The position numbers and the translations under genes were made by a program. Shown here in pieces: positions 7,804-35,067 of a stretch of DNA of 64,000 bases. Under the pieces are notes generated by a model. The model worked only from the letters and a program-made list of their open reading frames with translations. It was not told the origin of the DNA and searched no databases. Each line of letters begins with the position of its first letter. Within the stretch, counting starts at the first letter, position 1. The DNA comes from Candidatus Helarchaeota archaeon (GTDB taxonomy: Archaea; Asgardarchaeota; Lokiarchaeia; Helarchaeales; RDOG01): assembly GCA_019058315.1 (NCBI GenBank), contig JAHPZH010000003.1, forward strand, positions 396,451 to 460,450, in the 5' to 3' direction.

Positions 7804-9285
7804 ATGAAAGCTTGTTTTATTAATCCAGCACCTCGTTCATATATAGTTGAAAGAGGGCATGAGAAAACGGGAGCATATCCTCCTTTAGGTATTCTTTATA
7901 TTATGGCATACCTTAAAAAGGAGGGCTATGATTGTAAATTAATTGATCAGCACGCAACTAAAATCCCAACTGCTCGTGTTCTTGATCAAGTCAAGAAATA
8001 TGACCCCCAAGTAGTCGGTTTTAACAGTTTGACAGATATTAATATGGGACTACGAGCTTCATTTATCGCTAAAAAAATAAAGAATTGGAATCCAAATGTT
8101 AAGATTGTATTTGGAAATTGCCATGCGACCTTTAACCATGATAGAATATTAAAGAAATATTCATTCGTCGATATTTGTGTCAGGGGAGAGGGAGAATTAA
8201 CATTTTATGAATTAATTAGGGCTTTAGAAAAAAATAAAGACCTAAAAGATGTTCTTGGAATCACTTATCGAGATAATGGGAATATTCACATCAATCCAGA
8301 TCGACCTTTGATTAAGGACCTTGATTCCTTACCATTTCCTGATAGAAGAGCATGTGCGGATATAAAATATTCCCAGAATTATGGAGGTTTTAATGCTGAT
8401 TATGGTCGGTTTACAACAATTCAATCAAGTCGTGGTTGCACGTATAATTGTACTTTCTGTTGTCAAAGTAAAATATCTCAACGCAAATGGAGAACTAGAT
8501 CGATTTCACATGTTATTAAGGAATTGGAACAATTAAAAAGTGAGGGGTACACTAATCTATATTGGGTTGACGATAATTTTACAAATAATCCGCGAAGAGC
8601 AATAAAATTGTTTCGTGAAATGCAGAAACGTAGATTTAATTTTATTTGGGTCTGTGATCAAAGAGTAGACCTAGTTAGTAACCCATTGATTCATGAAATG
8701 AGAAAGGCAGGATGTCGCACTATGGCATTAGGCATTGAAAGTGCAAATCAAAGAATATTGGATTATTTAAATAAGGGAATTACCCCAAAGATCGCAATGG
8801 AGGCTTGTAGGAAAGTAAAAAGAATGGGGATAGACTTTATTATGGGATCATTTGTAATTGGTTTTCCTACTGAAACACTTGATGAGATTAAAAAAACCCT
8901 TTTCTTCGCACAAAAATTAGACATTGATATTCCACAATTTCATATTTTTGGAGCCATTCCTGGGACTTCAATTTGGGATAAATTAGTTCAGAATGGAAAA
9001 ATTGATCCCAATAAATATTGGGAGAACGGTGTTAAAACTTTAGTCCCTCCCTTAGAAATAGTTGAAAAAGAAATGCGGAGAGCGTATTTTAATTTTATTA
9101 AACGCCCAAAATATATTTTCGATCAATTTTTACGCACTATAGGAAGTCTACATAGAATAAAAATAATTTTTTCTAATAGAAAAGTTCTCGCAAGCTATAA
9201 AGATTCCAGAAGGTTTTTTGAATTTGCAACTGAAACTTGGACTCATGGAGTTTCTCCAAGTTCTACACAGAATTTAGAAAAATAA
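7804..9285 (+). CDS. Cobalamin-binding radical SAM protein (class B)
   Basis: PPLG..Y, G.H.T, RGEGE, SRGC...CTFC (CxxxCxxC), DDNF, GIES. Confidence 0.92.
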   Translation: MKACFINPAPRSYIVERGHEKTGAYPPLGILYIMAYLKKEGYDCKLIDQHATKIPTARVLDQVKKYDPQVVGFNSLTDINMGLRASFIAKKIKNWNPNVKIVFGNCHATFNHDRILKKYSFVDICVRGEGELTFYELIRALEKNKDLKDVLGITYRDNGNIHINPDRPLIKDLDSLPFPDRRACADIKYSQNYGGFNADYGRFTTIQSSRGCTYNCTFCCQSKISQRKWRTRSISHVIKELEQLKSEGYTNLYWVDDNFTNNPRRAIKLFREMQKRRFNFIWVCDQRVDLVSNPLIHEMRKAGCRTMALGIESANQRILDYLNKGITPKIAMEACRKVKRMGIDFIMGSFVIGFPTETLDEIKKTLFFAQKLDIDIPQFHIFGAIPGTSIWDKLVQNGKIDPNKYWENGVKTLVPPLEIVEKEMRRAYFNFIKRPKYIFDQFLRTIGSLHRIKIIFSNRKVLASYKDSRRFFEFATETWTHGVSPSSTQNLEK

Positions 9286-9308
9286 AACATTTTTAAAATT
9301 TTACTATT

Positions 9309-9992
9309 TCACTTTTTTCCTAATTCTTTCATTTCTCTATCTTCAAGCTTTTTTGAATATTTTTCCCAGACTTGATCTTCTCCTGGTTTTCTTTTCCAAA
9401 CTTTAAAATGACACGTTTCTGCCCCTTTTGGAATTAATTCAGTTACTTCAACATTCATGTTCAAAAAGTTTGAAAAATCAGCACCAGAATATCTTTCTTT
9501 TAATACATCTTGTAAAGAGCTGATAACACCTGCCATAAATCCAGATACTACCCATCTCTGTATTCTACAATCCCTTGCACTATAAATATCTTGATGTGGA
9601 CACCAAATAATATCAAAATAACCCTCATCTTTATTAACTAATTTCACGGAATCCGGAGAGGCGTAGATATTCCGGTTCATCCATGAAAGTATTTTCAACC
9701 ATGTTTCAACTTGATTTTTTTCATCAATTTTTTCTGGTAGAAGGGGTTTTAGATATTTACTGCTCTCTTGTCCTAATTTCATACCATAATCAAAAGATAC
9801 GTTTTTGCAGATTCTTTGTCCTTTTTTTCCGAATTTCTTTTCAACAGCCTTAATTGTATTTAAGAGAATTGTTGCCATTATCTGCCCCCATTTTAATACT
9901 GAAATAGGTTCAAATTCGGCGTCATCTTTAATATCCTTTAAAAATTTTTGTTCTATTTCAGTCAATTCTCTTGTTTGCTTGAATAATTTCAT
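9309..9992 (-). CDS. V4R/ATC-hydrolase-like fold protein
   Basis: AVEKKFG...G.KLG helix, WCP, C, IPKGAETCHF. Confidence 0.65.
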   Translation of the reverse strand: MKLFKQTRELTEIEQKFLKDIKDDAEFEPISVLKWGQIMATILLNTIKAVEKKFGKKGQRICKNVSFDYGMKLGQESSKYLKPLLPEKIDEKNQVETWLKILSWMNRNIYASPDSVKLVNKDEGYFDIIWCPHQDIYSARDCRIQRWVVSGFMAGVISSLQDVLKERYSGADFSNFLNMNVEVTELIPKGAETCHFKVWKRKPGEDQVWEKYSKKLEDREMKELGKK

Positions 9993-10060
9993 AAATAATC
10001 TTTGTTCAGTTTGTTTTTATAACTTTTATGTTGAAATTAGATAATTGCAAAAAAATGAGT

Positions 10061-10564
10061 TTAATGGTCGACTTTTTTAACAATTTTTAAAGCCCAATCT
10101 TCTGCTTTTTTCAAATCTGATTCATCAGGATGACCTTCAGAAGTTTCTCGGACCCAATCAACCTTATCGGGGAATATTTTAGAAAATTCCTTTAAATGAT
10201 TATGTTTCCCTAGACAAGAGTAAGCGCCTAAAAAATTAAGGGAATAGTTATTGCAATAATATTCGGTTATATCAATAGCACCCTTGTAAAATTTTTCTAA
10301 TTGGACTCCATAAGTGATAAATAATGCGATATTTGGGTGGTAATCAGGAGGCATATTTTTAAAGAATTCTTTTACCTTTTTTGGTAAGGTATGAATGTGA
10401 ACAGGGCTTCCTAAGAAGATGGTGTCCCAATTTGTAATTTCTTTATAATTTATTTCATTGATTGTTTTTATTGCCTTTTCTATATCTGGTAAAACATAAA
10501 AAATTCTCTTTGCTACTTTTTCTGTATTACCAGTTTGTGAATAATAAACAACTAATGGTTTCAT
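10061..10564 (-). CDS. Flavodoxin-family protein
   Basis: YYSQTGNTEKVA, FLGSP, C.G, GHPDESDL..A. Confidence 0.9.
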   Translation of the reverse strand: MKPLVVYYSQTGNTEKVAKRIFYVLPDIEKAIKTINEINYKEITNWDTIFLGSPVHIHTLPKKVKEFFKNMPPDYHPNIALFITYGVQLEKFYKGAIDITEYYCNNYSLNFLGAYSCLGKHNHLKEFSKIFPDKVDWVRETSEGHPDESDLKKAEDWALKIVKKVDH

Positions 10565-10716
10565 ATGTAGTCCCTTATCGCATTTAAAAAAATTTACAAA
10601 TTAATTATTGGTTAACCATAAATAATTTTTTGAATATGTAATAAATAATATATCAAAATTTTATAATTGGATCATGTAAAAGTTAAGTCTATATTAATTA
10701 TTTTGTTTGAATAATT

Positions 10717-11316
10717 TCATAAATTATTTTTATTCATTTTGTTTTTATCACCGTCTGCATCATTGATTGATTTACCCCTGCATGTTGGACACCATGAACC
10801 TATTTTAATATTATTAGGTATCGCTTCCCAAATATGTCCTTCCTCACATTGCCATTTTAATTTTGTTTGAGAATTGATATACATAGTTGATAGACATTTG
10901 CCACCTCTTTTCTCTGCTAATTTATGCATTTCTTCGATATTTAAAGGCACATTTCGTGCACAAACTGGGCACCAAGTGCCCCTTTTTATATTATCAGGTG
11001 TGGCTTCCCAGATATGTCCTTCCTTACATTGCCATTTTAATTTTGTTCGAGTATTGATATATATAGTTGATAGACATTTACCACCTTTCTCCTCCGCTAA
11101 TTTATTCATTTCTTCGATAGTCAGTGGTGCATTACCCGCACAAATTGGACACCAATGACCATCTTTAATATGTTTAGGTTTAGCTTCCCAAATATGTCCA
11201 TTTTCACATTCCCATTTTAAATTCGTTGATACATTGATATATTCAGTTGATAGACATTTACCACCCTTTTTTTCTGCCAAATTATTCATTTCTTCAATTG
11301 TTAATTTTCTTGTCAT
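10717..11316 (-). CDS. Triple zinc-ribbon (treble-clef, DUF4379-like) repeat protein
   Basis: Three 60-aa units L.IEEM..LA.K.GGKCLS..YIN..T.LKW.C..GHIWEA.P..IK.G.WCP.C. Confidence 0.85.
   Translation of the reverse strand: MTRKLTIEEMNNLAEKKGGKCLSTEYINVSTNLKWECENGHIWEAKPKHIKDGHWCPICAGNAPLTIEEMNKLAEEKGGKCLSTIYINTRTKLKWQCKEGHIWEATPDNIKRGTWCPVCARNVPLNIEEMHKLAEKRGGKCLSTMYINSQTKLKWQCEEGHIWEAIPNNIKIGSWCPTCRGKSINDADGDKNKMNKNNL
10765..11304 (-). repeat. Three intragenic 180-bp tandem repeats
   Basis: Shared strings such as agttgatagacattt and gcttcccaaatatgtcc recur every 180 bp. Confidence 0.9.
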
Positions 11317-11335
11317 TATAACATCTCATCAAATA

Positions 11336-12781
11336 CTAAGTTTTGATGGTTGTTTCTGATAAAATTTCAGCTAATTCCATAGCACTGTTTGCAGCAAGCT
11401 CAGTACCAATTCCATGACCTCCAGCCTCACAACCAACAATATATAGTCCTTTAATAGGCGTAATTTGTGATGGACGGCGTTCATGGATTTGTTTTACAGT
11501 CTGTGCAACTCCAATTATATTTCCACCTTCTCCAGCATATTGTTCTACCAGGGCAGGAGTGTCTGTTCGATACCACATGACATGCCCTTTAATTTCTGGA
11601 AGACATTCAATTAATGATTCCATACACCCTTCACCCCATCTCTCATATTCTTTTTGACTTAACCCAGGTCTACAACCTGACCCGAAAAATATTAGTTGTT
11701 TTCCTTTTGGGGCAAGTGCTGGATCAAAATTGCTTGGGCTTGTTATCATGCCTCCAAATTTTTCTGGAGGCTCTTTACCTCCCTTTTTAGGCATCATTTT
11801 GAATGATTCTTTAAATGGAACTGGAATATACATTACTAATTTCTGGTCAGTCACAACTTTATCCAAGGCAACCTTTATTGCCATACAATGGGTAGCATAC
11901 TTTAATTTTTTAACTCTTTCAATATAATCTGAAGGAAAATATTTCTCTCCTATTAAATTTAAAACAGTATTTTGGATATCCGCATTACTTATAATTAGAT
12001 CAGATTCGAAATGAGATCCATCTTCTAATTCTACTCCTTTGGCTTGTTCATCTTCAATTATAATCTTCGAAACCTTTGCATCCATTTGAACTTCCCCTCC
12101 ATATTTTTTTATTGCATCAGCATAAGCAGCAGGTATAGCAATGCAACCACCAATGGGATATGCAGATGATTTTGCCTTGGTAACTTGTTGAAAACATCGA
12201 ATAAATTCACCAGCTGAGGCGATGAATGGATCAACACAAAAATATTGCATACAAATTTGGCCTGCAAACATCAATAACATAGGATTTTTTGAATATTTTG
12301 ATACAAAATTTGCCAATTTGGTATAATATAAATCTTCTATTTGGTCCATAGGCATATTCATACAATCGGACCAAAATTTACTGCCAGCTTCTTTTTCTTT
12401 CTTTTTAGCATCTGAATTAACTTTTCCCTTTTTTTTACTACCAAGCATTCCGCTCATTGTATCGCGAGAATAGACCTTTCTTTCACCACAGTAGTTTAGA
12501 ATTGGACGTGGATTTCGAGCAATAACCCATTTTATCGCATTTGGCATTTCTATCATTCGACAGACATCACCAAGATAACCATTTTCTGCTACACCAAAAA
12601 GATGCACCCCGAGATCAATCTTAAATCCTTTGTGGTCATAAGTTGTGCAACGACCACCAATTATTTTATTTTTATCAAAAAGTTTAATCTTATATCCACT
12701 ATGAGCCAATAAAGCTCCAATTGCAGTGCCTCCAACTCCCCCACCCACAATTAAAGCATCATACTTATCAGTATTAGACAT
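11336..12781 (-). CDS. Phytoene-desaturase-family FAD-dependent oxidoreductase
   Basis: IVGGGVGG, IGGRC, D.G.H, YPIGG, DP.LAP.GKQ, TPIKGLYIVG. Confidence 0.88.
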   Translation of the reverse strand: MSNTDKYDALIVGGGVGGTAIGALLAHSGYKIKLFDKNKIIGGRCTTYDHKGFKIDLGVHLFGVAENGYLGDVCRMIEMPNAIKWVIARNPRPILNYCGERKVYSRDTMSGMLGSKKKGKVNSDAKKKEKEAGSKFWSDCMNMPMDQIEDLYYTKLANFVSKYSKNPMLLMFAGQICMQYFCVDPFIASAGEFIRCFQQVTKAKSSAYPIGGCIAIPAAYADAIKKYGGEVQMDAKVSKIIIEDEQAKGVELEDGSHFESDLIISNADIQNTVLNLIGEKYFPSDYIERVKKLKYATHCMAIKVALDKVVTDQKLVMYIPVPFKESFKMMPKKGGKEPPEKFGGMITSPSNFDPALAPKGKQLIFFGSGCRPGLSQKEYERWGEGCMESLIECLPEIKGHVMWYRTDTPALVEQYAGEGGNIIGVAQTVKQIHERRPSQITPIKGLYIVGCEAGGHGIGTELAANSAMELAEILSETTIKT

Positions 12782-20252: not shown

Positions 20253-21155
20253 TTAGACTTTCAAAGAATTTGAAGAAATTTTTTCTAGACTTGAAAAACA
20301 TTTAGGACACACGTATGTTCCGTCATTCCTTACTGAGAAGAATTTATTACAACTTATACATGTAAAAATTACTCCTTTTATTTCAGTGGGCATTGGAACA
20401 TTCAACATCTGGGCAATATAGACGATTTGGTCTTCACACCAACGAGCTCCATCTTCGAATTCAGCTTTTTTAGCCCAATATAACGCTTGTTTAAGAAATT
20501 CCAAAGCTAGTAATTTTCTATTGTCTTGAAAATATTGAATAGCTTGATTTGCGAATTTATCGTATTTTTGAAATGACTCGGTAGTGATAATTTTAGATTG
20601 TTCATATTCGACTCCAACTTCTTTTAATTTATCTGCGTATTTTGGATCTATAATCATCTTGACGAGAGTTTCAAAAATTATATCCACAGATTGCCCTGAT
20701 TTCGCACTAGAGTCAAAATAGATTGTATTGAATTTTTTAGCTAAATTTCTAGCTTCTTCAGTGGTTACTTGGATATCAGGTAAGTCAATTTTATTTCCAA
20801 CTAGAATAAGTGGAATGTTTCCGCTATTATCATATGCTTCTTTAAACCATCTACCTACATTATAAAAACTTCTTCTGTTAGTTTTATCAAAAACAACAAG
20901 ACCGCCAATACTGCCTTGATAATATAATGGGCGAATATAATTAAACTGTTCTTGACCCCCCGTATCCCAAATTTGGAATTTGACTCGATAACCATCAACT
21001 TCCATTAATTTTATACTAAATCCGACACCGATTGTCATTCTATAATCGTCTTTAAATATTCCATCCGTAAACCGGACAGATAAAGCAGTTTTCCCTACCG
21101 CACCGTCTCCCACAACAATAATTTTTAAAAGATAATCATATTTTTCAGATACCAT
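20253..21155 (-). CDS. Rab-like small GTPase with helical hairpin and C-terminal Zn ribbon
   Basis: YDYLLKIIVVGDGAVGKT, TIGVGF, KFQIWDTGGQE, YYQG, GNKID, SAK; CISC...CPKC. Confidence 0.9.
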   Translation of the reverse strand: MVSEKYDYLLKIIVVGDGAVGKTALSVRFTDGIFKDDYRMTIGVGFSIKLMEVDGYRVKFQIWDTGGQEQFNYIRPLYYQGSIGGLVVFDKTNRRSFYNVGRWFKEAYDNSGNIPLILVGNKIDLPDIQVTTEEARNLAKKFNTIYFDSSAKSGQSVDIIFETLVKMIIDPKYADKLKEVGVEYEQSKIITTESFQKYDKFANQAIQYFQDNRKLLALEFLKQALYWAKKAEFEDGARWCEDQIVYIAQMLNVPMPTEIKGVIFTCISCNKFFSVRNDGTYVCPKCFSSLEKISSNSLKV

Positions 21156-21256
21156 TTTTTTCAGCTACTAGCTAATATAATATTTAAATTTTGAAGTTTA
21201 AATTACCTCCAACGTGATTCTTATCCTTTTATTCCTATAAAAACATTATCTTACTA

Positions 21257-21367
21257 GTTTAATGAGATCTTCGCAATCCTTTTCTTATACAGACTACTAA
21301 AGTTCAAATCTAATCAGTTTTAATGAGATTTTCGCAAATTGTTTTAATGATACAATTTTGTTCGCAA
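21257..21367. repeat. Three imperfect direct repeats GTTT(T)AATGA...TTCGCAA in the WD40-Rab intergenic region
   Basis: 21257-21276 gtttaatgagatcttcgcaa; 21317-21337 gttttaatgagattttcgcaa; 21341-21367 gttttaatgatacaattttgttcgcaa. Confidence 0.7.
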
Positions 21368-21465
21368 GTTGAATATTCTTTTTTTAAAAACGAATTGGAA
21401 AAAATTAGGTAATTTATTACTAATTTAATAATGTTTTTCTTAAATTTGGATTTTTTCCTTTTTTA

Positions 21466-24400
21466 TCATTTTCTTTTTTGTTTTGATTTTCTCTTATTTT
21501 TGATTACTTTTTGTTTACCTTTCTTTTTAGCCTCTATTTTTTTAAAATATGCTTCAAGAATTTTGAATGGACTGGTATGATACATTAAAAGGTCTTTTGG
21601 AATATCTAATTTATTATCTTCTAATTCCAGAAATCCCAGTTTTTCACATTTTAAAATTTCCTTCGGGAGTGATGTAAGTTGATTTCCAGATAAGCAGAGT
21701 GAGTATAACTTTTTAAGATTGCCTATTTCTGGTGGAAGGGTTTTTAATTTATTACCACTCAGGTATAAAGATTCCAATTCAGTTAGATCTCCAATTTCTT
21801 TAGGAAGTTCTTCCAAATCGTTATCATAAAATTCAATACCTTTTAGTTTTTTCTGTTTGAATACGAATTTTGGAATTTTATTTAGTCCTGGATTATCACT
21901 TAAAATGATATAGTCAAGATTTTCAAGATTAACCATTTCTTCTGGTAATTTAGTTAATTGATTGTTTCCTAATGACAAATGATGTAGCTTAATTAAATTA
22001 CCAAATGATTTTGGAATCGATTTTAATTTATTTCTATGAAGTTCTAGAGACTCAAGATTTTGTAAATTCCCAAACTCTTCAGGCAACGATTCAAGTTCGT
22101 TATCTGTTAATTGAAGATATCTGAGATTTGTAAGATTCCCGAACTCAGGTGGTAGTGTTTTAAGTTTATTACGATATAAATAAAGAGTTTCAAGATTTTT
22201 TAGATTACCAAATTCGGGAAGTAGTGATTTCAATTTATTACTTTGTGCATTAAGTTGTTTAAGATTCTTCAACTGCCCTATTTCCTTGGGGAGGAATGTA
22301 AAATCATTAGAAGAAAGATTGAGTTCAGTACATTCTTTTAATAACCCAATTTCGGGTGGTAACACAAGCAAACTTCTTACATCGAGAGATTGTCCAGATA
22401 GACTGAAAGATTTTTTTTTCTTTTTTGCAGCTGATTTTATTTTTTTTACGACTCCTATATTATCTTTTTCCTTAACATAAGATATCAGGACCGGATTATC
22501 CCCATATTCCTCATATTTTAAGTTTTGAAGAAGATCTTTTTTTGTTTTTTTATCTGATCTTTCTAAAATGCTTATGATTTCTTCTGGTTGATCATTTTTG
22601 AGATAATAACTTATTAGACTATTGCCAACGTACCATTTTACATTTTTATTTTTATCAGAGATGCTTTTTTGTAAATCGTCAATTATTGGAGTAATTAATT
22701 TCCAATAAGCTTCCGGTGATGTTTTTTGTTTTTTATCACCATATGAATCGTAAATAAACGAGCAAATTTTATAAATAATTGATGCGGCATAACTACGAGT
22801 TTCTGCTTTAGGATTTTTTAATGATTTCGTAATAATTGGGATAGTTAGGGCTAAATCATCGATTTTTTTAGATCTTTCAACTATGGTTTTTGCAGTAACT
22901 AATTGGACATCTTCACTTTCATCAGTAAGGAGTTTTTTTAAGGATGGGAAGAGCGAAGAAATCTTGATACCGTATTTAACACTTGCTAATGTACCAGCTG
23001 TTTCTTGCCTCACATCTTTATTTTTGTGTTTTAGTAACTTTTCAATTTCTTCAAATTTACGTTTATTAGCGTAATGTAGTGTTAGTACATCAGCTACACC
23101 CCAATTTACGGAAAGAGCTTTTTTAAGCTCAGGTAGAAATTTAGCAACATTAAATCCTTCTTTTACTTCATCGCGTAAAAGTAAAATAGCCATATCTTGA
23201 ATTTTTTTATCTTTATGAGTTATTATATTCAACACTGTAGGTAGAGCATCAGATATATTCATCTTATCGCTTCTTGCAGCATGCATGGCACTCAAGGCAC
23301 TTTTTATTATTCCAGCATTTTCATCGGATAGTAACACTGCAAGTGCTGGCATAAAAAATGAAATATCACGTTCATCTCTATCGCTAACCATATCATACCC
23401 GGGAAAAGAGGCGAGCCAATCAGCTGATGATTTTCTCGTAGTAGCATTAAGATCTTTTAACTCATAAGTAGTCTTTCCATACATGCTAAATTTCCAGTCT
23501 CCATAATGGAGACCAAAATGCTTGTAGTAATACATCATTGCATCAGCTGCAGACCATCTAATCGCTAAATTGTCATCATAAAGTGCATCCCTGAGATAAG
23601 GAATGAAAGGTTTTAATTCAACCCGATTTTTTGCAGCTTCCTCTAATAGCAGAATAGTTTTTTGCCTTATTGAAAGTTCTGGACTTTCTAATCGATCAAT
23701 TAATTCTTTTAGAGTTAATTTAACTGTCTCTTGAGTATGACCTTCAATAGTTCGTAAAAGTTTTCCTTTTGACAAATCCCATATTTTAATGATGTGTGCA
23801 GATTTAGTAATAAGGTATTTACCATCAGTAGTAAAATACATCTGCTTTACATAATATTTATATCCTTTGAGCGTGCGGACGTGAGTTCCAGTCTTAAATT
23901 CTTCTAGCCAGACATCTTGGTCATATCCTGCACTAGCTACGATCTTATTATCGGGGGAAACGGCTACGGCATAAAGGGAAGATGGATGTCTACCTAACGT
24001 TCGAATAAGCTTTCCCATTTCAGGATAAAGCTCCCATATTCTCGTATAATGATCACCACCACAACTTACGATAAGTTTTCCATCAGAAGTAAGTGCAACT
24101 GACCACACAATGCCAGAATGAGCTTTGATCGAATGAATTTCTTCTCCAGTTGTAACTTCCCAAATCCTTATCGTTGTGTCCCATGAACCACTAATAACAT
24201 ATCTATCATCTAGAGAGAAAACTACGGATTCGACTTGTTTTTTATGTCCACTTAAAGTTTTGATTTTTTTCCCTGTATTCATGGCCCAAATTTTTATAGT
24301 TTTGTCAACTGAACCGCTTGCAATTAATTTTCCATCAGAAGAAAAAGCAAGTGAAGTTATTGCATTATCATGCCCTGTAAGCGTTTTAATAAGTTTCCCT

Positions 24401-26439
24401 GTTTTAACTTCCCAAATTTTTATACTATTATCATTTCCTGACCCACCACTTACGATAAAGTTACCATCTGGTGATATAGTTACTGATGTAACCACATCTG
24501 TATGTCCCTTGAGAACTTGTTCAAGTTTCCATTTTTCCAAATCCCAAATTTGAACAGTTTTTTTATTAGAACCTACAATAATTTTTTTTCCATTAGGAGA
24601 TACTGCAAACGAATTTGCACCATGAGCTTTTAAATCGTATGTTTGAACGAATTCTCCAATTGGAAATCCCCAGACCTTTATACTCCCATTCCACGATCCA
24701 CTAACAATATATTTACTATCATTAGAAACAGCTACTGTATGAACAGAATTTGTATGTCCCTCAAGTGTAAAAAGAGATTTACCTGTTTTTAAATCCCAAA
24801 ATTTTACTGATTTATCATAAGATCCACTAATAATATATTTTCCATCAGGAGACACACAAACGCATAACACTCCAAGATAATGAGCATCGATAGAATGTTC
24901 TAGCCTCCCGCTATTTAAATCCCATACCTTAACTGTATTATCATCAGACCCGCTGACGATAAAATCAGGAGATATTGAGACTGATAACACATTGTCTTTA
25001 TGCTCCTTAAGCGTCCTAATACAAATCCCAGTCCCAAATTGCCAGACTTTAATAGTCCTATCACGAGAACCACTTACAATATAAACTCCATCTTGGGAGA
25101 CCGTAACTGATTTGACAGAAGCTGTATGACCTTTAAGTGTCTTAACCAGTTCCCCAGTTTCTAGCTCCCAAATTTTTAAAGTAGCGTCAGACGAACCACT
25201 GACGATATTTTTTCCATTAGAGGTAATTTTAACAGAATTTACGTGCCCTTGATGCCCTTCAAGTGTGTGGAGGAGTTTTTTAGTCTTAAATTCCCACACT
25301 CTTATGGAATTATCACGGGATCCGCTTATTATATACTTTCCATTTGGAGAAATATCCACACATAAAACACCAGATGAATGTCCTTCTAGCATATTGACAA
25401 ATTTTCCGCTAGATAATTCCCATATTTTAATTGTTGAGTCATTGGACCCATGAATTATATATTTCCCATCCGAGGAAATTGCTATTGACCAAACTATTTC
25501 GGCAGGATTAAGATTACTTAATGATTTTTCTTTGGCAGATTTTGCTTCTTCGGTACTCCATATCTTAATTGTCTTATCCCCAGATCCGCTTATTATAAAT
25601 TTTCCGTCAAGAGAGAACTTAACAGAACTCACCCAACGACTATGTTTTTTAAATTTGTATAATAATTCTCCTTTATCTATATCCCATAGTATTACAGTTT
25701 GATCTCCTGATCCACTTAGAAGATATTTTCCATCGGGAGATAATGCTAAAGAATATATAAGTGCTTCATGCCCATCAAGAATGTGGATAAATTTTCCAGT
25801 CTTAAAATCCCATACAATTACTGTTTCATCCTCTGATGCACTATAGATATATCTTCCGTCTTTAGAAAGTTCGATTGCACGGATGGCCGCTGAATGACCC
25901 TCAAGTAGACGGAAATCTCCCGTCTCTATATTATATATTCTAAGATCTACGCCGTTGCCATGGAGAAGATATTTTCCATCATTAGAGAATGAGATTGAAG
26001 TTACATAATATTCCATTTTAAATGTTTTAATACATTTTCCAGTCATTAACTCCCATAAAATGAGATTACTATCTTTGGCACCACTAGCTATATATTTTCC
26101 ATCAGGGGAAATGGCGACACATTCTATCCAATCTTCATGGTCTTTTAGAGTATGAATCAATTTGCCTGTTATAAATTCCCATATTTTGATAGTTTTATCC
26201 CAAGATCCACTAACAATATATTTTCCATCAGGAGAGATAGCAATACAATAAACGGTGTTATTATGTGCTTCAATAGTACGGACACATTTCCCGGTAGCAT
26301 ACTCCCATACCTTGATAGTTTTATCATAAGATCCACTTATAATATATTTCCCATCAGGGGAAATTGCGATTGTGGTTATAGAGTCTTCATGTCCAGTAAT
26401 TACCTTTTCCATTTTTTTCAAAATCCAAAAGTCCCCCAT
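21466..26439 (-). CDS. Large WD40 (about 21 repeats) - HEAT/ARM solenoid - LRR protein
   Basis: GH...S.DG..I.SGS.D.TIK.W repeats to about aa 900; HEAT motifs (L.D.N..IR..AA, LL.H..KDVR..A) to about aa 1330; then LxxLxLxxNxLxxLPxEIG LRRs; basic tail. Confidence 0.92.
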   Translation of the reverse strand: MGDFWILKKMEKVITGHEDSITTIAISPDGKYIISGSYDKTIKVWEYATGKCVRTIEAHNNTVYCIAISPDGKYIVSGSWDKTIKIWEFITGKLIHTLKDHEDWIECVAISPDGKYIASGAKDSNLILWELMTGKCIKTFKMEYYVTSISFSNDGKYLLHGNGVDLRIYNIETGDFRLLEGHSAAIRAIELSKDGRYIYSASEDETVIVWDFKTGKFIHILDGHEALIYSLALSPDGKYLLSGSGDQTVILWDIDKGELLYKFKKHSRWVSSVKFSLDGKFIISGSGDKTIKIWSTEEAKSAKEKSLSNLNPAEIVWSIAISSDGKYIIHGSNDSTIKIWELSSGKFVNMLEGHSSGVLCVDISPNGKYIISGSRDNSIRVWEFKTKKLLHTLEGHQGHVNSVKITSNGKNIVSGSSDATLKIWELETGELVKTLKGHTASVKSVTVSQDGVYIVSGSRDRTIKVWQFGTGICIRTLKEHKDNVLSVSISPDFIVSGSDDNTVKVWDLNSGRLEHSIDAHYLGVLCVCVSPDGKYIISGSYDKSVKFWDLKTGKSLFTLEGHTNSVHTVAVSNDSKYIVSGSWNGSIKVWGFPIGEFVQTYDLKAHGANSFAVSPNGKKIIVGSNKKTVQIWDLEKWKLEQVLKGHTDVVTSVTISPDGNFIVSGGSGNDNSIKIWEVKTGKLIKTLTGHDNAITSLAFSSDGKLIASGSVDKTIKIWAMNTGKKIKTLSGHKKQVESVVFSLDDRYVISGSWDTTIRIWEVTTGEEIHSIKAHSGIVWSVALTSDGKLIVSCGGDHYTRIWELYPEMGKLIRTLGRHPSSLYAVAVSPDNKIVASAGYDQDVWLEEFKTGTHVRTLKGYKYYVKQMYFTTDGKYLITKSAHIIKIWDLSKGKLLRTIEGHTQETVKLTLKELIDRLESPELSIRQKTILLLEEAAKNRVELKPFIPYLRDALYDDNLAIRWSAADAMMYYYKHFGLHYGDWKFSMYGKTTYELKDLNATTRKSSADWLASFPGYDMVSDRDERDISFFMPALAVLLSDENAGIIKSALSAMHAARSDKMNISDALPTVLNIITHKDKKIQDMAILLLRDEVKEGFNVAKFLPELKKALSVNWGVADVLTLHYANKRKFEEIEKLLKHKNKDVRQETAGTLASVKYGIKISSLFPSLKKLLTDESEDVQLVTAKTIVERSKKIDDLALTIPIITKSLKNPKAETRSYAASIIYKICSFIYDSYGDKKQKTSPEAYWKLITPIIDDLQKSISDKNKNVKWYVGNSLISYYLKNDQPEEIISILERSDKKTKKDLLQNLKYEEYGDNPVLISYVKEKDNIGVVKKIKSAAKKKKKSFSLSGQSLDVRSLLVLPPEIGLLKECTELNLSSNDFTFLPKEIGQLKNLKQLNAQSNKLKSLLPEFGNLKNLETLYLYRNKLKTLPPEFGNLTNLRYLQLTDNELESLPEEFGNLQNLESLELHRNKLKSIPKSFGNLIKLHHLSLGNNQLTKLPEEMVNLENLDYIILSDNPGLNKIPKFVFKQKKLKGIEFYDNDLEELPKEIGDLTELESLYLSGNKLKTLPPEIGNLKKLYSLCLSGNQLTSLPKEILKCEKLGFLELEDNKLDIPKDLLMYHTSPFKILEAYFKKIEAKKKGKQKVIKNKRKSKQKRK

Positions 26440-26461: not shown

Positions 26462-27280
26462 TCAAAATTTTACAGAACTACGGCTTTTTGTCCTTACATA
26501 ATCTTGATATTCAACAACTAATTCTCTAAGATTCATTAATTTCATTGCATCTTTATAATCCCCATCTATTTGAATGTCTCCTTTTAGATACATGCGTGAA
26601 GCATTACCCTGACCAGAAAAAAGAGCAATAGCTGATTTATTATCACTCATAGTAATAGTTACATTAGGATCAGGATATTGGACATCCATAACTCCAGAGA
26701 ACGATCCATCTTTAAAATGAAAATAACATTGAGGACCATTAATTACATTAAATTGAATGACAACATTTACACCTTTCATCTCAATTTGAACGTTTTCATC
26801 AACTTCGGTAATTTCTTGGAATCCAATCAAGTGCCCATATAATAAAGTTTTGGCAAGTAAATAATCATCTTGAGATGTTAATTCATCGCCATAATTATAA
26901 TTTGAATATGGTAAAGCTAGATTCATGAGGTCTACACAAATATTCTTAAATTTAGGTTCTTCTTTAAGTATTATTTTTCCTTCTGATTTTAATTGCTCAA
27001 AATTAAGCTGTTCTCTTCTCAATATTTTGAATAAAGTATTTGGGTCATTAAAATGAATTCTCGCTTGATAATCAGGAGCTTTTTTTCGTCTTTCAAAAAT
27101 GATTTTATTATTTTTTATTTCTAGATATTCTACCGGTCCCTCTTCAACTGAAAATTGAATATTTAATTCATAATCCTTTATTTTACTCTTTACGTCATCA
27201 TTATATTTGCCTAATTCACTCATTGTGTATAAGAGAGTGTCTAAGACCATTCTTGATGTAATTAGATCATAATAGTTCAT
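26462..27280 (-). CDS. Tandem SCP2 (sterol carrier/lipid-binding) domain protein
   Basis: Two IQF.V..GP..Y..... units; PNVTITM...A..LFSG.......YLKGDIQIDGD. Confidence 0.8.
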   Translation of the reverse strand: MNYYDLITSRMVLDTLLYTMSELGKYNDDVKSKIKDYELNIQFSVEEGPVEYLEIKNNKIIFERRKKAPDYQARIHFNDPNTLFKILRREQLNFEQLKSEGKIILKEEPKFKNICVDLMNLALPYSNYNYGDELTSQDDYLLAKTLLYGHLIGFQEITEVDENVQIEMKGVNVVIQFNVINGPQCYFHFKDGSFSGVMDVQYPDPNVTITMSDNKSAIALFSGQGNASRMYLKGDIQIDGDYKDAMKLMNLRELVVEYQDYVRTKSRSSVKF

Positions 27281-28370: not shown

Positions 28371-29495
28371 TTACTTAGAATATGCTTTTTCTAGTAATTC
28401 AAGATGTTTAATTGCAACTTCTTCTCTGATTTTTCTCTGGTTGAATTCCGTTCTGATTTTTTCTATAAGATATTCTGGAAAGAATAAATTTACATTGATA
28501 TTTGACAGTAGAAAAACCCATTCGTTATTTTTATTATCTGTTATCTTTGTAAGAATATTTTTCTCAATCAATTCATTAATAATATTTCTTAATTCTTCTC
28601 CTCCAACTTCTGGCCCCTTAGGGATTTTGTTTAATTTATAGAAATTATCAGTAAATAACTTAAAAACATCATATTTATCGGGATGTTTTAAAATCGAAGC
28701 TATTTTTAAACTATCATCTGTTGAAGGTAGATAACGTGAAAAGAATTCATTTACTTGTTTTAGATATAATTGAGCTACATCTGAAGATGGTCTGTTTTTC
28801 TTTGCAAATTCAATTATTTTTAAGGCAGGACCTCTTAATATTGAAAAATCATTTAATAAAAACAAAAATTGATCACGAAAACCTGCGATCCAATCTTCTT
28901 TAATAATTCCTGTTTGAATAAACGATTCAAGGGAAATATCGAGATTTGTTATAATTTGCTTCAGATTTTCTTCGAGATATATTTTTAATTCTTTTTTAGA
29001 AAGTGGGCTCTCTTGTAATTTTCCTAGAATCTGACGTCCTTTTGGACTGGAATAGATTTGAGCTATTTTCTGTTCTTTATTAAGATTTCCCAAACGTTTT
29101 AGAAAATCAAACATTTTGGCCAAATATTTATCAAGATCTTTATAAATTTCGAATTTTTGAGATGGGTTTTCATTTAGTTTATCTAAATACTGTAAGATAT
29201 TGTTATTAATGTCAGTAACAACATCTCCGAACATCTCTGGGTCTTCACCTAGCTCTAATATTAAATTTATCATATAGGGAACGGGTGATTCAATACCCGT
29301 AAAATGGCTACTAATGTTTGATTGTGCTTTCTCTAGACGAACAATTACATTTCCCTTCTCCCCAGTTCCAGTTATATGAGCATAAAAAACTCGCATCATA
29401 TCGTCAAGATCAATTTCTAGAGTTTCCGGGAATTTTTTATTTAAAACTAATCCTTCTTCCATTGTCCATTCTAAAATTGCAAAACCTTTTGGCAA
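28371..29495 (-). CDS. Longin/uDENN-like N-terminal domain plus probable winged-helix domains
   Basis: MPKGFAILEW.MEEG.VL..KFPE longin start; L.LELGEDP; IL..LQE.P.SK.EL...L and a second helix-turn-wing segment. Confidence 0.6.
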   Translation of the reverse strand: MPKGFAILEWTMEEGLVLNKKFPETLEIDLDDMMRVFYAHITGTGEKGNVIVRLEKAQSNISSHFTGIESPVPYMINLILELGEDPEMFGDVVTDINNNILQYLDKLNENPSQKFEIYKDLDKYLAKMFDFLKRLGNLNKEQKIAQIYSSPKGRQILGKLQESPLSKKELKIYLEENLKQIITNLDISLESFIQTGIIKEDWIAGFRDQFLFLLNDFSILRGPALKIIEFAKKNRPSSDVAQLYLKQVNEFFSRYLPSTDDSLKIASILKHPDKYDVFKLFTDNFYKLNKIPKGPEVGGEELRNIINELIEKNILTKITDNKNNEWVFLLSNINVNLFFPEYLIEKIRTEFNQRKIREEVAIKHLELLEKAYSK

Positions 29496-32925: not shown

Positions 32926-35067
32926 TTAAGTTTTTTCAATTAATTTATTAATCCAATCTATAATTTTATCTGATAATTCTTGTTTCATATTTTCTGGAAG
33001 TAAGGTATTTATTTTCTTTAAATCTCTGGCCCAAGAAGCGATTTTATGAAACGCCATGGAGAATCCCATCCGCTCTAATAAAGATTCTCGAATTTCATCT
33101 AAAGCTTCACCTATTATAAAGCCAGCACTTGTATTAATTTTGGATTTTACAAGATTAAAGTTTCTTGAAATAAATTCTGATGTGTCTTTTGAAGAGATTA
33201 GCTGAATTTTTTCAACATCACCACTTGGAAGTTCTGCTTCCGGTTCAGGGGCTGGCTTTAAACTTGGTTTAGATATACCTGGTGTTGGAGTTGTTTGTGC
33301 TGGTTTAGTTTTAATCGGTTTTACGGGGGCAGAAATGGATTCTACCTTTAAACTTGGCTTAGGTTCTAAAGTTTTAATTTCTTCAGCTTCTCGCATACTG
33401 GGAATTTTATGAGTAATTTTTTCGCTATTCATCCACACTTCTTCCAGCACGCCTGCAAACATTTTTATGTGTTCATCAAGAATGCTCCCCATACCAGCAA
33501 TCTCATAAGTGTCTAATCCTGGAGAAGCGGATATCACGCAAACCACAACTTCTTCAAAATCTTTATTAATTGCCCAAATATTTTGTCTGGTATAGTTTCT
33601 TATGGAAATATTGCCATGGCTAGCTACATCTTCATATAGTTCTCTATCTGTTGATGGATCTACCCATGTTGAAATCCTTATGTTAACGTGTCTTGGGAGC
33701 TTTTTCAGAGGAATAAAATCTATATCGTGTAATTTTGGAGATATAATATGGACACGCATTTTAGCTCTTGAAACAGAATCATTAATTTGCGCTTGCATCG
33801 CTTCCGCACTTCTAATGAACCAAACATCTTGAAAGGATAGAAGAGAAGCTCGCCGGGCTCGATCCCAAAATTCTTGCATAGTTTTTTCAGAAAGTTCCAG
33901 TTGTTGGAATATTCTTTTCAATATATCAGATTGTAGTGTTTCAAAAATCTCATCTTTAAAAACATTCTTTAACTCATCAAAAGTACCCAAGATATCACTA
34001 CGGACATCTGATAGTTTAGACTCTGTTTCTTTTAATGTATCTTCGAGATTTGTTGTAATTTCTCCAAAGGTTCCTTCAACAGAGGAACTTATTTCACTTG
34101 CAACATCAACTACAGAAAAAAGTCGTTCTTTTAACGTTTTTTCAACATTTTCTGTAATTTTTTCAAATGTGCCCTCAACAGAAGAGCCAATATCACCTGC
34201 AATATCAGCTACGGATAGGATTCTTTCCAAAACTTGGTCTAATGTTTTTTCAATATTATTAACAAACTTCTCCTCAAAGAATTCTTGAATAAATCCAAAT
34301 TCTTCTGAAATTATTTTTGATACAATTTTTTCAGCAAATGATTTTAAAGCACTAATTCTGAATTGTTTTTCAAATACTTGGGCGATTTTTACTTTAATAT
34401 TTTCAAGCCTTTCCTTAAATTGTATAAATTGTGCATTCAGTTCTGTTGAAACCGATCCTTTTAATTTGTTCATGAATTCATCAAACTCTTGTAATTTTTT
34501 AACTTCTTCAAGACCAGATTTCAGAGAACCCAATTGACTCATAACTTGATCTTTTAATGCGTCCATTAATTCATGGAATTCTTGTAATTTTTTAACTTCT
34601 TCAAGGCTAGATTGTAAAGAATTTAATTGTTTACTAATATTTTGAGGAAGTTCGGCTCTCAATTGCTTAAGATATTTTTGATATTCCTCAAGTTTACTTA
34701 CTTTCATAGTTTGACTTTCAAATGTCATAAATCTATTTTCAAGATCCTTTGGGGTTTTTACTTGCATATCCGATATCAATGTTTTAAATTGTGATATTTG
34801 CCCTAAAAGTGCAGAATAGGGAGGTAATGCTACATAATGTGGTGTTTTTCCTGGGACTTCCCTCAAAAGACCTTTAGAAAGTAAGTTATTAACTATTTTA
34901 TCTGCTTCCTCAAATTCAATATTTTGTATAATACAAATTTCACCCTTTGTTACAGTTCCACGACCAGTCATTTTAAAGTAGGTATCAATTTCTTGAGGGA
35001 TTAAGCCCAAAACACCTAATGCTTGTTTAGTTTTTTCGAATGCTGCTTCTTCTTTTTTAGATTCCAA
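32926..35067 (-). CDS. TrmB-like wHTH + long helical repeats + PLD-fold-like domain + Pro-rich linker + C-terminal helical domain
   Basis: LGL...EIDTY...L..KGLL.E.PG....Y.ALPP; AKMRVHIISP...IR.Y....WAI..D.EEV; helical repeats between. Confidence 0.72.
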   Translation of the reverse strand: MESKKEEAAFEKTKQALGVLGLIPQEIDTYFKMTGRGTVTKGEICIIQNIEFEEADKIVNNLLSKGLLREVPGKTPHYVALPPYSALLGQISQFKTLISDMQVKTPKDLENRFMTFESQTMKVSKLEEYQKYLKQLRAELPQNISKQLNSLQSSLEEVKKLQEFHELMDALKDQVMSQLGSLKSGLEEVKKLQEFDEFMNKLKGSVSTELNAQFIQFKERLENIKVKIAQVFEKQFRISALKSFAEKIVSKIISEEFGFIQEFFEEKFVNNIEKTLDQVLERILSVADIAGDIGSSVEGTFEKITENVEKTLKERLFSVVDVASEISSSVEGTFGEITTNLEDTLKETESKLSDVRSDILGTFDELKNVFKDEIFETLQSDILKRIFQQLELSEKTMQEFWDRARRASLLSFQDVWFIRSAEAMQAQINDSVSRAKMRVHIISPKLHDIDFIPLKKLPRHVNIRISTWVDPSTDRELYEDVASHGNISIRNYTRQNIWAINKDFEEVVVCVISASPGLDTYEIAGMGSILDEHIKMFAGVLEEVWMNSEKITHKIPSMREAEEIKTLEPKPSLKVESISAPVKPIKTKPAQTTPTPGISKPSLKPAPEPEAELPSGDVEKIQLISSKDTSEFISRNFNLVKSKINTSAGFIIGEALDEIRESLLERMGFSMAFHKIASWARDLKKINTLLPENMKQELSDKIIDWINKLIEKT

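What the first reader, a model, noticed from the sequence alone, without database searches (positions are those of the whole stretch)
20253..26439. 1657-aa triple beta-propeller + alpha-solenoid + LRR scaffold upstream of a Rab-like GTPase
Seen: about 21 WD40s in three blocks of seven, about 430 aa of HEAT repeats, then about 11 LRRs, with no enzymatic domain. The LRRs have an N-cap (KKIKSAAKKK...LSGQSL) and a C-cap (NKLDIPKDLL...ILEAYF). The next co-oriented gene, 310 bp away, is the Rab-like GTPase. Known: propeller followed by solenoid is the protocoatomer layout (COPI/II, clathrin, nucleoporins), and this type of LRR C-cap directly precedes the Roc GTPase in Roco proteins. Inference: a coat/tether-like scaffold, or a split Roco-like sensor with its GTPase in trans. 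The very regular WD40s suggest recent repeat amplification, so convergence is plausible.
Basis: partly seen in the sequence, partly recalled or inferred. Interest (0 to 1): 0.7.

Follow-up and report, generated by a model that had tools for sequence, protein, structure and literature searches.

The report
Asgard WD40-HEAT-LRR fusion scaffold protein
One Asgard (Lokiarchaeia-class) archaeon has fused three WD40 propellers onto a conserved but unstudied HEAT-plus-LRR protein, making a 1657-residue docking scaffold with no enzyme part; its link to the neighbouring Rab-like GTPase is unproven, and it is neither a vesicle-coat ancestor nor a split Roco protein.

Summary
ORF 21466-26439(-) encodes 1657 aa: 21 WD40 repeats folding as three 7-bladed propellers, about 436 aa of HEAT hairpins, 12 LRRs with N- and C-caps, and a polybasic tail. 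No enzymatic domain was found. A Rab-like GTPase follows 310 bp downstream.

The C-terminal 754 aa belong to a conserved, unnamed HEAT-LRR family of about 630-850 aa. Named members are mainly Asgard; one Spirochaete lineage also has it. No member carries WD40, so the propeller-solenoid order is a fusion found only in this genome, not protocoatomer heritage. The genome has no COR domain, so "split Roco" fails. The WD40 repeats average 38% identity, so amplification was not recent.

GTPase linkage is weak. The spacer has T-runs, a TATA-like box and TTGCGAA boxes shared with the GTPase's paralogues. Relatives have this GTPase subfamily but not the scaffold. Only 1 of 30 LRR regions in the genome lies near a GTPase. 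However, the one other archaeal family locus with context also has a small GTPase two genes downstream.

Most likely this is a multivalent cytosolic interaction scaffold. The scan noted this stretch before only on this same DNA. Interest is modest.

The parts
21466..26439 (-). Whole scaffold gene, 1657 aa (P0001). An alternative start at Met10 (26412) is possible.
25555..26409 (-). WD40 propeller 1 (residues 11-295, 7 blades)
   Evidence: 28 strands in the AF2 model; repeats 1-7; Pfam WD40 and propeller models
24667..25494 (-). WD40 propeller 2 (residues 316-591, 7 blades)
23743..24618 (-). WD40 propeller 3 (residues 608-899, 7 blades, including the closing strand LSKGKLLRTIEGH)
22423..23730 (-). 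HEAT/ARM solenoid (residues 904-1339, 24 helices). It begins exactly where stand-alone family members begin.
   Evidence: Pfam; family alignment; AF2 pLDDT 92.7
23365..23385 (-). Family-invariant SDRDERD motif (residues 1019-1025) in a long, lower-confidence loop between HEAT helices. Candidate binding site (inference).
   Evidence: invariant columns D117-R121; loop with pLDDT about 60; position
22999..23019 (-). Family-invariant (D)KDVRQE(T/A) HEAT motif (residues 1141-1147)
22411..22446 (-). Basic linker KKIKSAAKKKKK before the LRR N-cap; a basic linker is also seen in the two family members compared (P0126, P0128)
21571..22410 (-). 12 leucine-rich repeats (23-aa LxxLPxEIGxL type) with the N-cap SFSLSGQSL
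   Evidence: Pfam LRR_8 and LRR_14; 12 strands; Z 32 to Leptospira LRR proteins, Z 29-30 to SHOC2, Z 27 to C. tepidum Roco LRR
21469..21570 (-). LRR C-cap (…NKLDIPKDLL…KILEAYF) running into a long helix, then a 25-aa polybasic tail with 15 K/R. Among the aligned family members (A1) only this protein has the polybasic tail.
21156..21465 (-). 310-bp spacer. T6 and T5 runs lie 62-80 nt after the scaffold stop codon. Three TTGCGAA boxes lie at 21361-21367, 21331-21337 and 21270-21276. A TATA-like TTTAAATATTATATTA lies 18-33 nt before the GTPase ATG.
   Evidence: boxes shared with GTPase paralogues
20253..21155 (-). Rab-like small GTPase (P0002, 300 aa): G domain at residues 1-170, then a helical extension with a CxxC…CxxC zinc ribbon
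   Evidence: Pfam Ras 170 bits, Roc 107 bits; best PDB matches are Rabs; the extension is specific to this order, with 4 copies in this genome
26462..27280 (-). Upstream co-oriented gene for an SCP2-domain protein (P0003); it ends 22 bp before the scaffold ATG

Best explanation
The gene encodes a cytosolic, non-enzymatic, multivalent docking scaffold made by a gene fusion specific to this genome. Its conserved core is the C-terminal HEAT-LRR module, which belongs to an unnamed family whose named members are mainly Asgard.

Inferred: this core binds one or more partner proteins through the concave LRR face and through an invariant, exposed SDRDER loop in the HEAT solenoid.

Shown: three canonical 7-bladed WD40 propellers have been joined exactly at the N-terminus of that module.

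Inferred: the propellers add three further docking platforms. A polybasic tail found only in this protein among the aligned family members may bring the assembly to acidic membranes or nucleic acid.

The downstream Rab-like GTPase is most likely transcribed from its own regulated promoter and is not an obligate partner. The propeller-solenoid order and the Roco-type LRR cap are products of domain shuffling, not signs of coat or Roco ancestry.
For: - Architecture and folds are confirmed.
- The C-terminal 754 aa align full length (28-43% identity) with nine HEAT-LRR proteins of about 690-850 aa. They share invariant DRDER and K..RQE..G columns and the IL.YF cap. Named members come from Promethearchaeota, Hodarchaeota and Helarchaeota MAGs, plus a Spirochaete bin.
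- No WD40 was found in the ten family members scanned or by tblastn in any fetched family locus.
- No 911-2900 aa protein with this HEAT module was found. There is no paralogue in the genome and no match in its order.
- The fusion point coincides with the N-termini of the stand-alone proteins.
- GC3 is uniform across the modules and neighbouring genes. No near-identical DNA repeat exists that could cause a misjoin.
- The spacer has terminator-like T-runs, a TATA-like box and TTGCGAA boxes. The GTPase's two closest paralogues carry the same boxes at the same distance from their starts.
- The GTPase subfamily occurs in 5 of 6 relatives in the order, none of which gave a match to the HEAT module.
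- Only 1 of 30 LRR regions and 1 of 21 WD40 regions in the genome lie within 3 kb of a G domain; the random expectation is 7.8%.
- No defence-system or enzyme family hits.
Against: - No binding partner is identified, so the function rests on fold classes only.
- The other archaeal HEAT-LRR locus with context (G282) also has a co-oriented Ras-like GTPase, 1.5 kb and two genes downstream. With 52 and 96 GTPases per genome, two such proximities by chance have a probability of roughly 0.005. This figure is my own estimate, made after seeing the data, with n=2.
- The bacterial loci say little about linkage. No homologue of this GTPase was found within 8 kb of the family gene there, and whether those bacteria encode Rab-like GTPases at all was not checked.
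- Promoter and terminator calls rest on sequence motifs only.
Confidence: 0.58

Rival explanations
1. GTPase platform in trans. The HEAT-LRR module binds the adjacent Rab-like GTPase in its GTP form and acts as its effector or regulator scaffold. This would resemble SHOC2 binding MRAS through its LRR, or the LRRK2 armadillo domain binding Rab29/Rab12. The propellers would recruit downstream clients.
For: - A co-oriented Rab-like GTPase lies 310 bp downstream.
- G282 has the order HEAT-LRR, DEAD-box helicase, Ras-like GTPase, all co-oriented with short gaps.
- The LRR is structurally close to SHOC2 (Z 29-30).
- Among the listed Foldseek matches, LRRK2 in Rab29/Rab12 complexes and LRRC8 channel subunits gave alignments long enough to span helical region plus LRR.
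- The LRR cap is of the kind that abuts Roc GTPases.
Against: - The two GTPases are only 33% identical, and the G282 one lacks the C-terminal extension.
- The GTPase has its own cis-elements, shared with its paralogues.
- Its subfamily exists in relatives that lack the scaffold.
- Its paralogues are not near LRR or WD40 genes.
- The bacterial family loci have no small GTPase within 8 kb.
- The LRRK2 alignment has an rmsd above 40 A, so it shows only the same order of fold types.
Confidence: 0.24
2. Conflict-system or signalling sensor. The repeat arrays would serve as the ligand-sensing part of an NTPase-dependent defence or signalling system, as WD40, LRR, HEAT and TPR arrays do in STAND/NLR proteins, with the NTPase and effector encoded elsewhere.
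For: The all-repeat make-up and the patchy distribution across archaea and a Spirochaete lineage are typical of mobile sensor modules. LRR hits include NACHT, TIR, CHAT and Roco fusions.
Against: No STAND NTPase or effector domain is found in the protein or its neighbours. PADLOC gives no hits. The family's HEAT-LRR core is conserved along its full length rather than hypervariable.
Confidence: 0.08
3. Protocoatomer-like coat or tether. The propeller-then-solenoid layout would reflect kinship with, or the function of, COPI/COPII/clathrin/nucleoporin-type membrane-curving scaffolds.
For: The domain order is propellers followed by an alpha-solenoid. A polybasic tail and an adjacent SCP2 lipid-binding gene could suggest membranes. 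Adaptin_N gives a near-threshold hit (35.7 bits against a cut-off of 37).
Against: - The layout was found in this genome only; every relative of the solenoid examined lacks a propeller.
- The solenoid is made of canonical short HEAT repeats and continues into an LRR, which no coat protein has.
- No coat or nucleoporin family passes a cut-off.
- Repeat architectures converge easily (preprint 10.64898/2026.10.28.762692).
Confidence: 0.04
4. Split Roco protein. The LRR with its cap would be the N-terminal half of a Roco GTPase whose Roc domain is now a separate gene.
For: The cap motif N.L..P…IL.YF matches Roco proteins, where the P-loop follows about 20 residues later. The GTPase also matches the Pfam Roc model at 107 bits.
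Against: - There is no COR domain in either protein or anywhere in the 94%-complete genome, while the control genome M. acetivorans scores.
- The Ras model scores higher than Roc, and the best solved matches are Rabs.
- Every full-length HEAT-LRR member aligned that keeps the cap ends there, so termination after the cap is the family's normal state and not a recent split.
- The cap also precedes non-Roc sequence in P0006.
Confidence: 0.03
5. Assembly or annotation artefact. Two genes (WD40 and HEAT-LRR) would have been joined by a misassembly or a lost stop codon.
For: The fusion is seen in one genome only. The exact protein is not in the 15-billion-protein collection with either tested start, although both neighbours are.
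Against: The frame stays open across a clean domain boundary. The contig is 844 kb, in a 12-contig assembly. No near-identical repeats exist that could cause a misjoin, and GC3 is homogeneous.
Confidence: 0.03

Closest known systems
Unnamed HEAT-LRR family, annotated only as 'leucine-rich repeat domain-containing protein' (e.g. MHA1680131.1 and MHA1731674.1 Promethearchaeota, MFX0098429.1 Hodarchaeota, MBD3188425.1, and the Spirochaetes ADurb.Bin133 contig MWDO01000018.1)
   Same: Full-length co-linear alignment of the C-terminal 754 aa at 28-43% identity. Shared features are the invariant SDRDER loop, the DKDVRQE HEAT motif, the LRR N-cap, the IL.YF C-cap and, in two members compared, a basic linker.
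   Different: All other members are about 630-850 aa and lack WD40. This protein adds 903 aa of triple propeller at the N-terminus. Among the aligned members only it has the polybasic tail.
SHOC2 (LRR scaffold of the SHOC2-MRAS-PP1C holophosphatase)
   Same: Same 23-24-residue LRR type. Strong sequence match (E about 1e-66) and structure match (Z 29-30, rmsd 2-3 A over about 285 residues). SHOC2 is a non-enzymatic scaffold that binds a Ras-family GTPase in trans.
   Different: SHOC2 has about 20 LRRs and an N-terminal disordered MRAS/PP1C-binding region, with no HEAT or WD40. No PP1-type phosphatase partner is evident here. The LRR similarity is generic; Leptospira LRR proteins score higher.
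LRRK2 N-terminal ARM-ANK-LRR region and bacterial Roco LRRs
   Same: A helical solenoid followed by an LRR of the same type. Foldseek aligns LRRK2 co-linearly over 960-1040 columns. The LRRs score Z 26-27. The cap motif is shared with Roco proteins. In the matched entries LRRK2 is in complex with Rab29 or Rab12 (entry titles).
   Different: No ANK, Roc, COR or kinase domains. COR is absent from the genome. The WD40 is N-terminal and triple rather than C-terminal and single. The global superposition is poor (rmsd above 40 A).
Protocoatomer proteins (COPI alpha/beta', clathrin heavy chain, Sec31, Nup/HOPS-type propeller-solenoid proteins)
   Same: The order is N-terminal beta-propeller(s) and then an alpha-solenoid.
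   Different: No sequence family match. The solenoid is of HEAT type and continues into an LRR. The layout arose by a fusion found only in this genome.
Prokaryotic consensus-like WD40 propellers (PkwA/WDR5-like)
   Same: Canonical GH…WD repeats of 42 aa in 7-blade units. They are 40-46% identical to about 20 other propeller genes of the same genome.
   Different: This is the only triple array in the genome, and the only one joined to HEAT-LRR.

Membership tests
Unnamed Asgard-dominated HEAT-LRR family | Co-linear HEAT solenoid plus LRR, with the invariant SDRDER and DKDVRQE motifs and the IL.YF cap | tested here: met
   Alignment A1: 28-43% identity over the full length to nine HEAT-LRR members, with the invariant columns listed. 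phmmer E-values of 2e-79 to 1e-35.
Unnamed Asgard-dominated HEAT-LRR family | Stand-alone architecture of about 630-850 aa with no other domain | tested here: not met
   This protein carries 903 extra N-terminal residues of WD40.
WD40 repeat / 7-bladed beta-propeller (PF00400) | Repeats of about 42 aa matching the WD40 model and folding into closed 7-blade propellers | tested here: met
   680 bits and 19 stretches; 21 repeats; three blocks of 27-28 strands.
Roco proteins | Roc GTPase and COR domain in tandem on the same polypeptide | tested here: not met
   No G domain in the scaffold. COR-A (PF16095) has no match in the whole genome, while the control genome scores.
Roco proteins | LRR whose C-terminal cap directly precedes the Roc P-loop | tested here: inconclusive
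   The cap motif is shared with Roco hits. Here and in the family members that keep the cap, the protein ends after it. The motif also precedes non-Roc sequence.
Roco proteins | G domain of Roc type | tested here: not met
   The neighbouring GTPase scores 170 bits with Ras against 107 with Roc. Its best solved matches are Rabs.
Protocoatomer (coat/nucleoporin propeller-solenoid proteins) | N-terminal beta-propeller followed by an alpha-solenoid | tested here: met
   Models. This is layout only.
Protocoatomer (coat/nucleoporin propeller-solenoid proteins) | Detectable kinship of the solenoid or propeller with coat, adaptor or nucleoporin families | tested here: inconclusive
   Adaptin_N scores 35.7 bits, below its cut-off of 37. 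The fold searches were filled by LRR matches, so the HEAT part was barely tested.
Protocoatomer (coat/nucleoporin propeller-solenoid proteins) | Propeller-solenoid architecture inherited, meaning shared by relatives | tested here: not met
   Relatives of the solenoid lack propellers. No fused form was found at 911-2900 aa.
Protocoatomer (coat/nucleoporin propeller-solenoid proteins) | Self-assembly into a membrane coat or scaffold | not testable with these tools
   Needs biochemistry or imaging.
SHOC2-type Ras-effector LRR scaffolds | LRR horseshoe that binds a GTP-loaded Ras-family GTPase together with PP1C | not testable with these tools
   Only fold and sequence similarity of the LRR is shown.
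STAND/NLR-type sensors | Central NACHT/NB-ARC-type NTPase before the repeat array | tested here: not met
   No NTPase family appears in the complete Pfam list for residues 880-1657 or among the 25 best families for the whole protein. PADLOC gives no hits.
Rab-like small GTPases (the neighbouring gene) | Ras-superfamily G domain with G1-G5 motifs and best similarity to Rabs | tested here: met
   GDGAVGKT, DTGGQE, NKID and SAK are read in the sequence. Pfam Ras E=3e-50. Top PDB hits are Sec4, Rab35, Thorarchaeota Rab, Rab11 and Rab8. There is no C-terminal prenylation Cys motif; a zinc ribbon takes its place.

The most novel reading that the evidence does not exclude
The HEAT-LRR family would be an Asgard-born docking platform for Rab-like GTPases, a prokaryotic counterpart of the way the LRRK2 armadillo domain and the SHOC2 LRR bind Rab/Ras proteins in trans. 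In this lineage it would have been welded to three propellers to give a coat- or tether-like machine that acts at membranes through its polybasic tail and the SCP2 lipid-binding neighbour.
Probability: 0.1. Interest if true: 0.7.

Novelty: new variant of a known kind. Interest (0 to 1): 0.3.

Why it matters
Asgard genomes are unusually rich in LRR and alpha-solenoid proteins of unknown function (preprint 10.64898/2026.10.28.762692). Propeller-solenoid layouts in them are often read as forerunners of eukaryotic coats.

This case shows that such a layout can arise by a fusion found in a single genome, so it should not be counted as protocoatomer evidence. It also defines a compact, conserved HEAT-LRR family with an invariant exposed SDRDER loop and a high-confidence model. 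That family is a tractable target for finding what Asgard LRR proteins bind, small GTPases included.

Tried and rejected
The contexts of family members P0124, P0126, P0127, P0128 and P0133 could not be read. This is the main gap in the GTPase-linkage test.
- Searching with HEAT+LRR together was swamped by generic LRR proteins. Only the HEAT part alone found the family.
- A search for fused forms of similar length found none.
- Genome and metagenome scans gave few extra loci. Three were the same Spirochaete DNA and two were short contigs.
- The Acetofilamentum copy is interrupted by a stop codon and was left out.
- A small HMM of the cap was too weak to survey cap usage; it gave one hit.
- The family tree is star-like and gives no direction of transfer.
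- The ESM Atlas returned only generic HEAT clusters with scores below 0.9.
- A PDB sequence search with the HEAT part found only designed repeat proteins.
- Fold searches of the 754-aa model were filled by LRR matches, so the HEAT part's nearest folds remain untested.
- PADLOC and NCBIfam found nothing above their cut-offs.
- The upstream neighbour in G282 is unrelated to the SCP2 gene here.
- The small ORFs downstream of the GTPase have no paralogues, so they are not conserved partners of it.

Full report
**What is there.** The window has about 30% G+C. One uninterrupted minus-strand ORF at 21466-26439 gives a 1657-aa protein.
- Pfam assigns the first ~900 residues to WD40 and to many 7-blade propeller models.
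- Residues ~904-1330 match HEAT, HEAT_2, HEAT_EZ and Cnd1. Residues ~1344-1632 match LRR_8, LRR_14 and LRR_4.
- Pfam, NCBIfam and PADLOC show no enzymatic domain. There is no hydrophobic stretch of 15 or more residues.
- I parsed 21 WD40 units of 40-46 aa plus a trailing closing strand.
- A single-sequence AlphaFold2 model of residues 1-905 (mean pLDDT 82.7, pTM 0.43) has 28, 27 and 28 strands in three blocks. Low-confidence linkers at 301-313 and 593-607 separate them, so there are three 7-bladed propellers.
- A model of the C-terminal 754 aa built on a 35-row alignment is confident (pLDDT 92.7, pTM 0.78). It shows 24 helices, then 12 LRR strands, then a long terminal helix.
- The tail of 25 residues holds 15 Lys/Arg.

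**The organism.**
- The window lies on an 844-kb contig of a 5.79-Mb, 12-contig genome that is 94% complete.
- The genome has 96 Ras-family matches.
- Relatives of the HEAT-LRR part are named by their depositors as Promethearchaeota, Hodarchaeota and Helarchaeota.
- Earlier notes of this scan call the organism an Asgard archaeon.
- Its GTDB class also holds closed genomes of 4.4 and 6.0 Mb. I take the class to be Lokiarchaeia; that is an inference, not a tool result.

**The repeats are not freshly amplified.**
- Pairwise identity among the 21 WD40 units averages 38%, with a maximum of 57%. Identity at lag 7 (41%) is not above identity at lags 1-3 (38%).
- At the DNA level the gene matches itself and other propeller genes at no more than 83% over 76 nt.
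- About 20 other propeller genes of the genome are 40-46% identical to it.

These are simply consensus-like prokaryotic WD40s.

**The key result: a known core with a propeller addition found only here.**
- A search with HEAT+LRR together returned only generic LRR proteins, each covering about a third of the query.
- The HEAT part alone has no paralogue in the genome and no match in its order. An exhaustive phmmer search found 26 proteins at E<1e-30. Many are 690-850 aa long with the match at their N-terminus.
- Pfam shows these to be HEAT followed by LRR.
- Nine such HEAT-LRR proteins align with the window's C-terminal 754 aa over the full length at 28-43% identity.
  - Invariant columns include D-R-D-E-R (residues 1020-1024 here) and K..RQE..G (the DKDVRQE motif).
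  - The LRR N-cap (LSGQSL) and the IL.YF C-cap are conserved.
  - A basic linker before the N-cap is also seen in P0126 and P0128.
- The SDRDER motif sits in a long loop of lower confidence between two HEAT helices. That placement marks it as a candidate binding element (inference).
- Stand-alone proteins begin exactly where the WD40 region ends here.
- No WD40 was found in the members scanned or in any fetched family locus. No protein of 911-2900 aa with this HEAT module was found.
- Among 400 genomes of the phylum only one (G282) has a HEAT-LRR form. Three others have HEAT-only relatives.
- A Spirochaete bin carries a 634-aa member. An Acetofilamentum MAG carries a stop-interrupted copy.
- The tree is unresolved.

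The propeller-then-solenoid order is thus a fusion seen in this genome only.

**Is the fusion an artefact?**
- Against an artefact:
  - The frame is open across a clean domain boundary.
  - GC3 is uniform across the three modules and neighbouring genes (0.18-0.24).
  - No near-identical repeat exists elsewhere in the genome that could cause a misjoin.
- For caution: the exact protein is absent from the large protein collection with either tested start, although both neighbours are present.
- Read mapping could not be done.

**The GTPase link.**
- The gene 310 bp downstream (20253-21155) has all the G motifs. It scores 170 bits with Pfam Ras and matches Rabs best in the PDB.
- It carries a 130-aa extension ending in a zinc ribbon. 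That extension is confined to this order, with four copies here and one each in five of six relatives.
- Those relatives gave no match to the HEAT module. The closest one shows no scaffold beside its GTPase.
- The spacer contains, in order after the scaffold stop codon:
  - T6 and T5 runs 62-80 nt downstream of it;
  - three TTGCGAA boxes;
  - a TATA-like element 18-33 nt before the GTPase ATG.
- The two closest GTPase paralogues carry twin TTGCGAA boxes at about -150 and -120 from their starts, as here. The spacer therefore looks like the GTPase's own regulatory region, duplicated together with the gene.
- Genome-wide, only 1 of 30 LRR regions and 1 of 21 WD40 regions lie within 3 kb of a G domain, and both are this gene. 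Random segments do so 7.8% of the time, and 3.7% within 1 kb.
- The Spirochaete gene follows a HerA-like helicase and has no small GTPase within 8 kb.
- Against pure chance: in G282 the order is HEAT-LRR, DEAD-box helicase, 173-aa Ras-like GTPase, all co-oriented. That genome has 52 Ras-family matches in 4.2 Mb. I estimate two such proximities to be jointly unlikely, at roughly 0.005. This is a post-hoc figure with n=2.
- The two GTPases are only 33% identical.

I therefore keep a GTPase-platform reading as the main rival at about one in four.

**Roco and coat readings.**
- Roco proteins among the LRR hits end their LRR with N.L..PP.EI…AI..Y[FL] about 20 residues before the Roc P-loop. The window's cap fits this pattern.
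- Against a split Roco:
  - COR is absent from the whole genome, while the control genome scores.
  - The family members that keep the cap end right after it.
  - The same cap precedes non-Roc sequence in a CHAT-containing protein.
  - The LRR is closest to Leptospira LRR proteins (Z 32) and SHOC2 (Z 29-30). C. tepidum Roco scores Z 27 and LRRK2 Z 26.
- Foldseek aligns full-length LRRK2 co-linearly over 960-1040 columns, but with rmsd above 40 A. That shows the same order of fold types and nothing more.
- For the coat idea, no coat or nucleoporin family passes a cut-off; Adaptin_N scores 35.7 against 37. The layout is also not inherited. A recent preprint makes the same caution about convergence of Asgard solenoids.

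**Verdict.** This is a real and unusual fusion of three ordinary repeat folds. Its conserved core is an uncharacterised HEAT-LRR family whose named members are mainly Asgard. Most likely it is a multivalent cytosolic docking scaffold (confidence about 0.58). A working relationship with Rab-like GTPases is possible but unproven. Protocoatomer and split-Roco ancestry are not supported.

Noticed in passing
window 21270-21367 (-); also G000 C11 about 642260-642290 and C5 about 58730-58760: TTGCGAA boxes lie upstream of the Rab-like GTPase. Twin boxes sit at about -150 and -120 upstream of its two closest paralogues, which share the zinc-ribbon extension. This looks like a cis-regulatory element specific to this GTPase subfamily. 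The factor that binds it is unknown.
   Followed up: partly
window 20256-20645 (-): The GTPase carries a 130-aa C-terminal extension: a helical part plus a CxxC…CxxC zinc ribbon with a weak A2L_zn_ribbon hit. The extension was found only in this order, with four copies in this genome and one of them holding stop codons. It replaces the usual prenylation tail.
   Followed up: partly
window 28371-29495 (-); G000 C11:123572-124639, C6:277301-278365, C1:444912-445976: The 374-aa protein, which has no Pfam hit and which another reader called longin plus winged helix, has about nine paralogues. Three of them lie directly beside divergent Ras-superfamily GTPases with open frames of 528-573 aa. The copy in this window has no such neighbour.
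   Followed up: partly
window 26462-27280 (-): A 272-aa protein with a Pfam SCP2 lipid-binding domain in its C-terminal half ends 22 bp before the scaffold start codon, with a TTTATAT element in the gap. A paralogue on C2 (45% identical) is not near any LRR or WD40 region of the genome.
   Followed up: partly
window 32926-35067 (-): A 713-aa protein has an N-terminal TrmB-type winged helix and a long coiled-coil-like remainder. Here the TrmB-like gene lies about 12 kb from the GTPase.
   Followed up: no
L019 (G282) 7968-12244: The genes for HEAT-LRR, a DEAD-box helicase and a 173-aa Ras-like GTPase are co-oriented, with gaps of 206 and 68 nt. In the Spirochaete locus L017 the HEAT-LRR gene instead follows a HerA-like helicase by 5 bp. 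A helicase neighbour is present in both loci.
   Followed up: no
L018 7875-9998: The Acetofilamentum copy of the HEAT-LRR gene is split by one in-frame stop codon. It may be a pseudogene or a sequencing error.
   Followed up: no
G123-G127 (family f21), e.g. L009, L010: Giant open frames of 2200-2870 aa in another Asgard family give weak HEAT matches to this solenoid (E about 1e-4). Their architecture was not examined.
   Followed up: no
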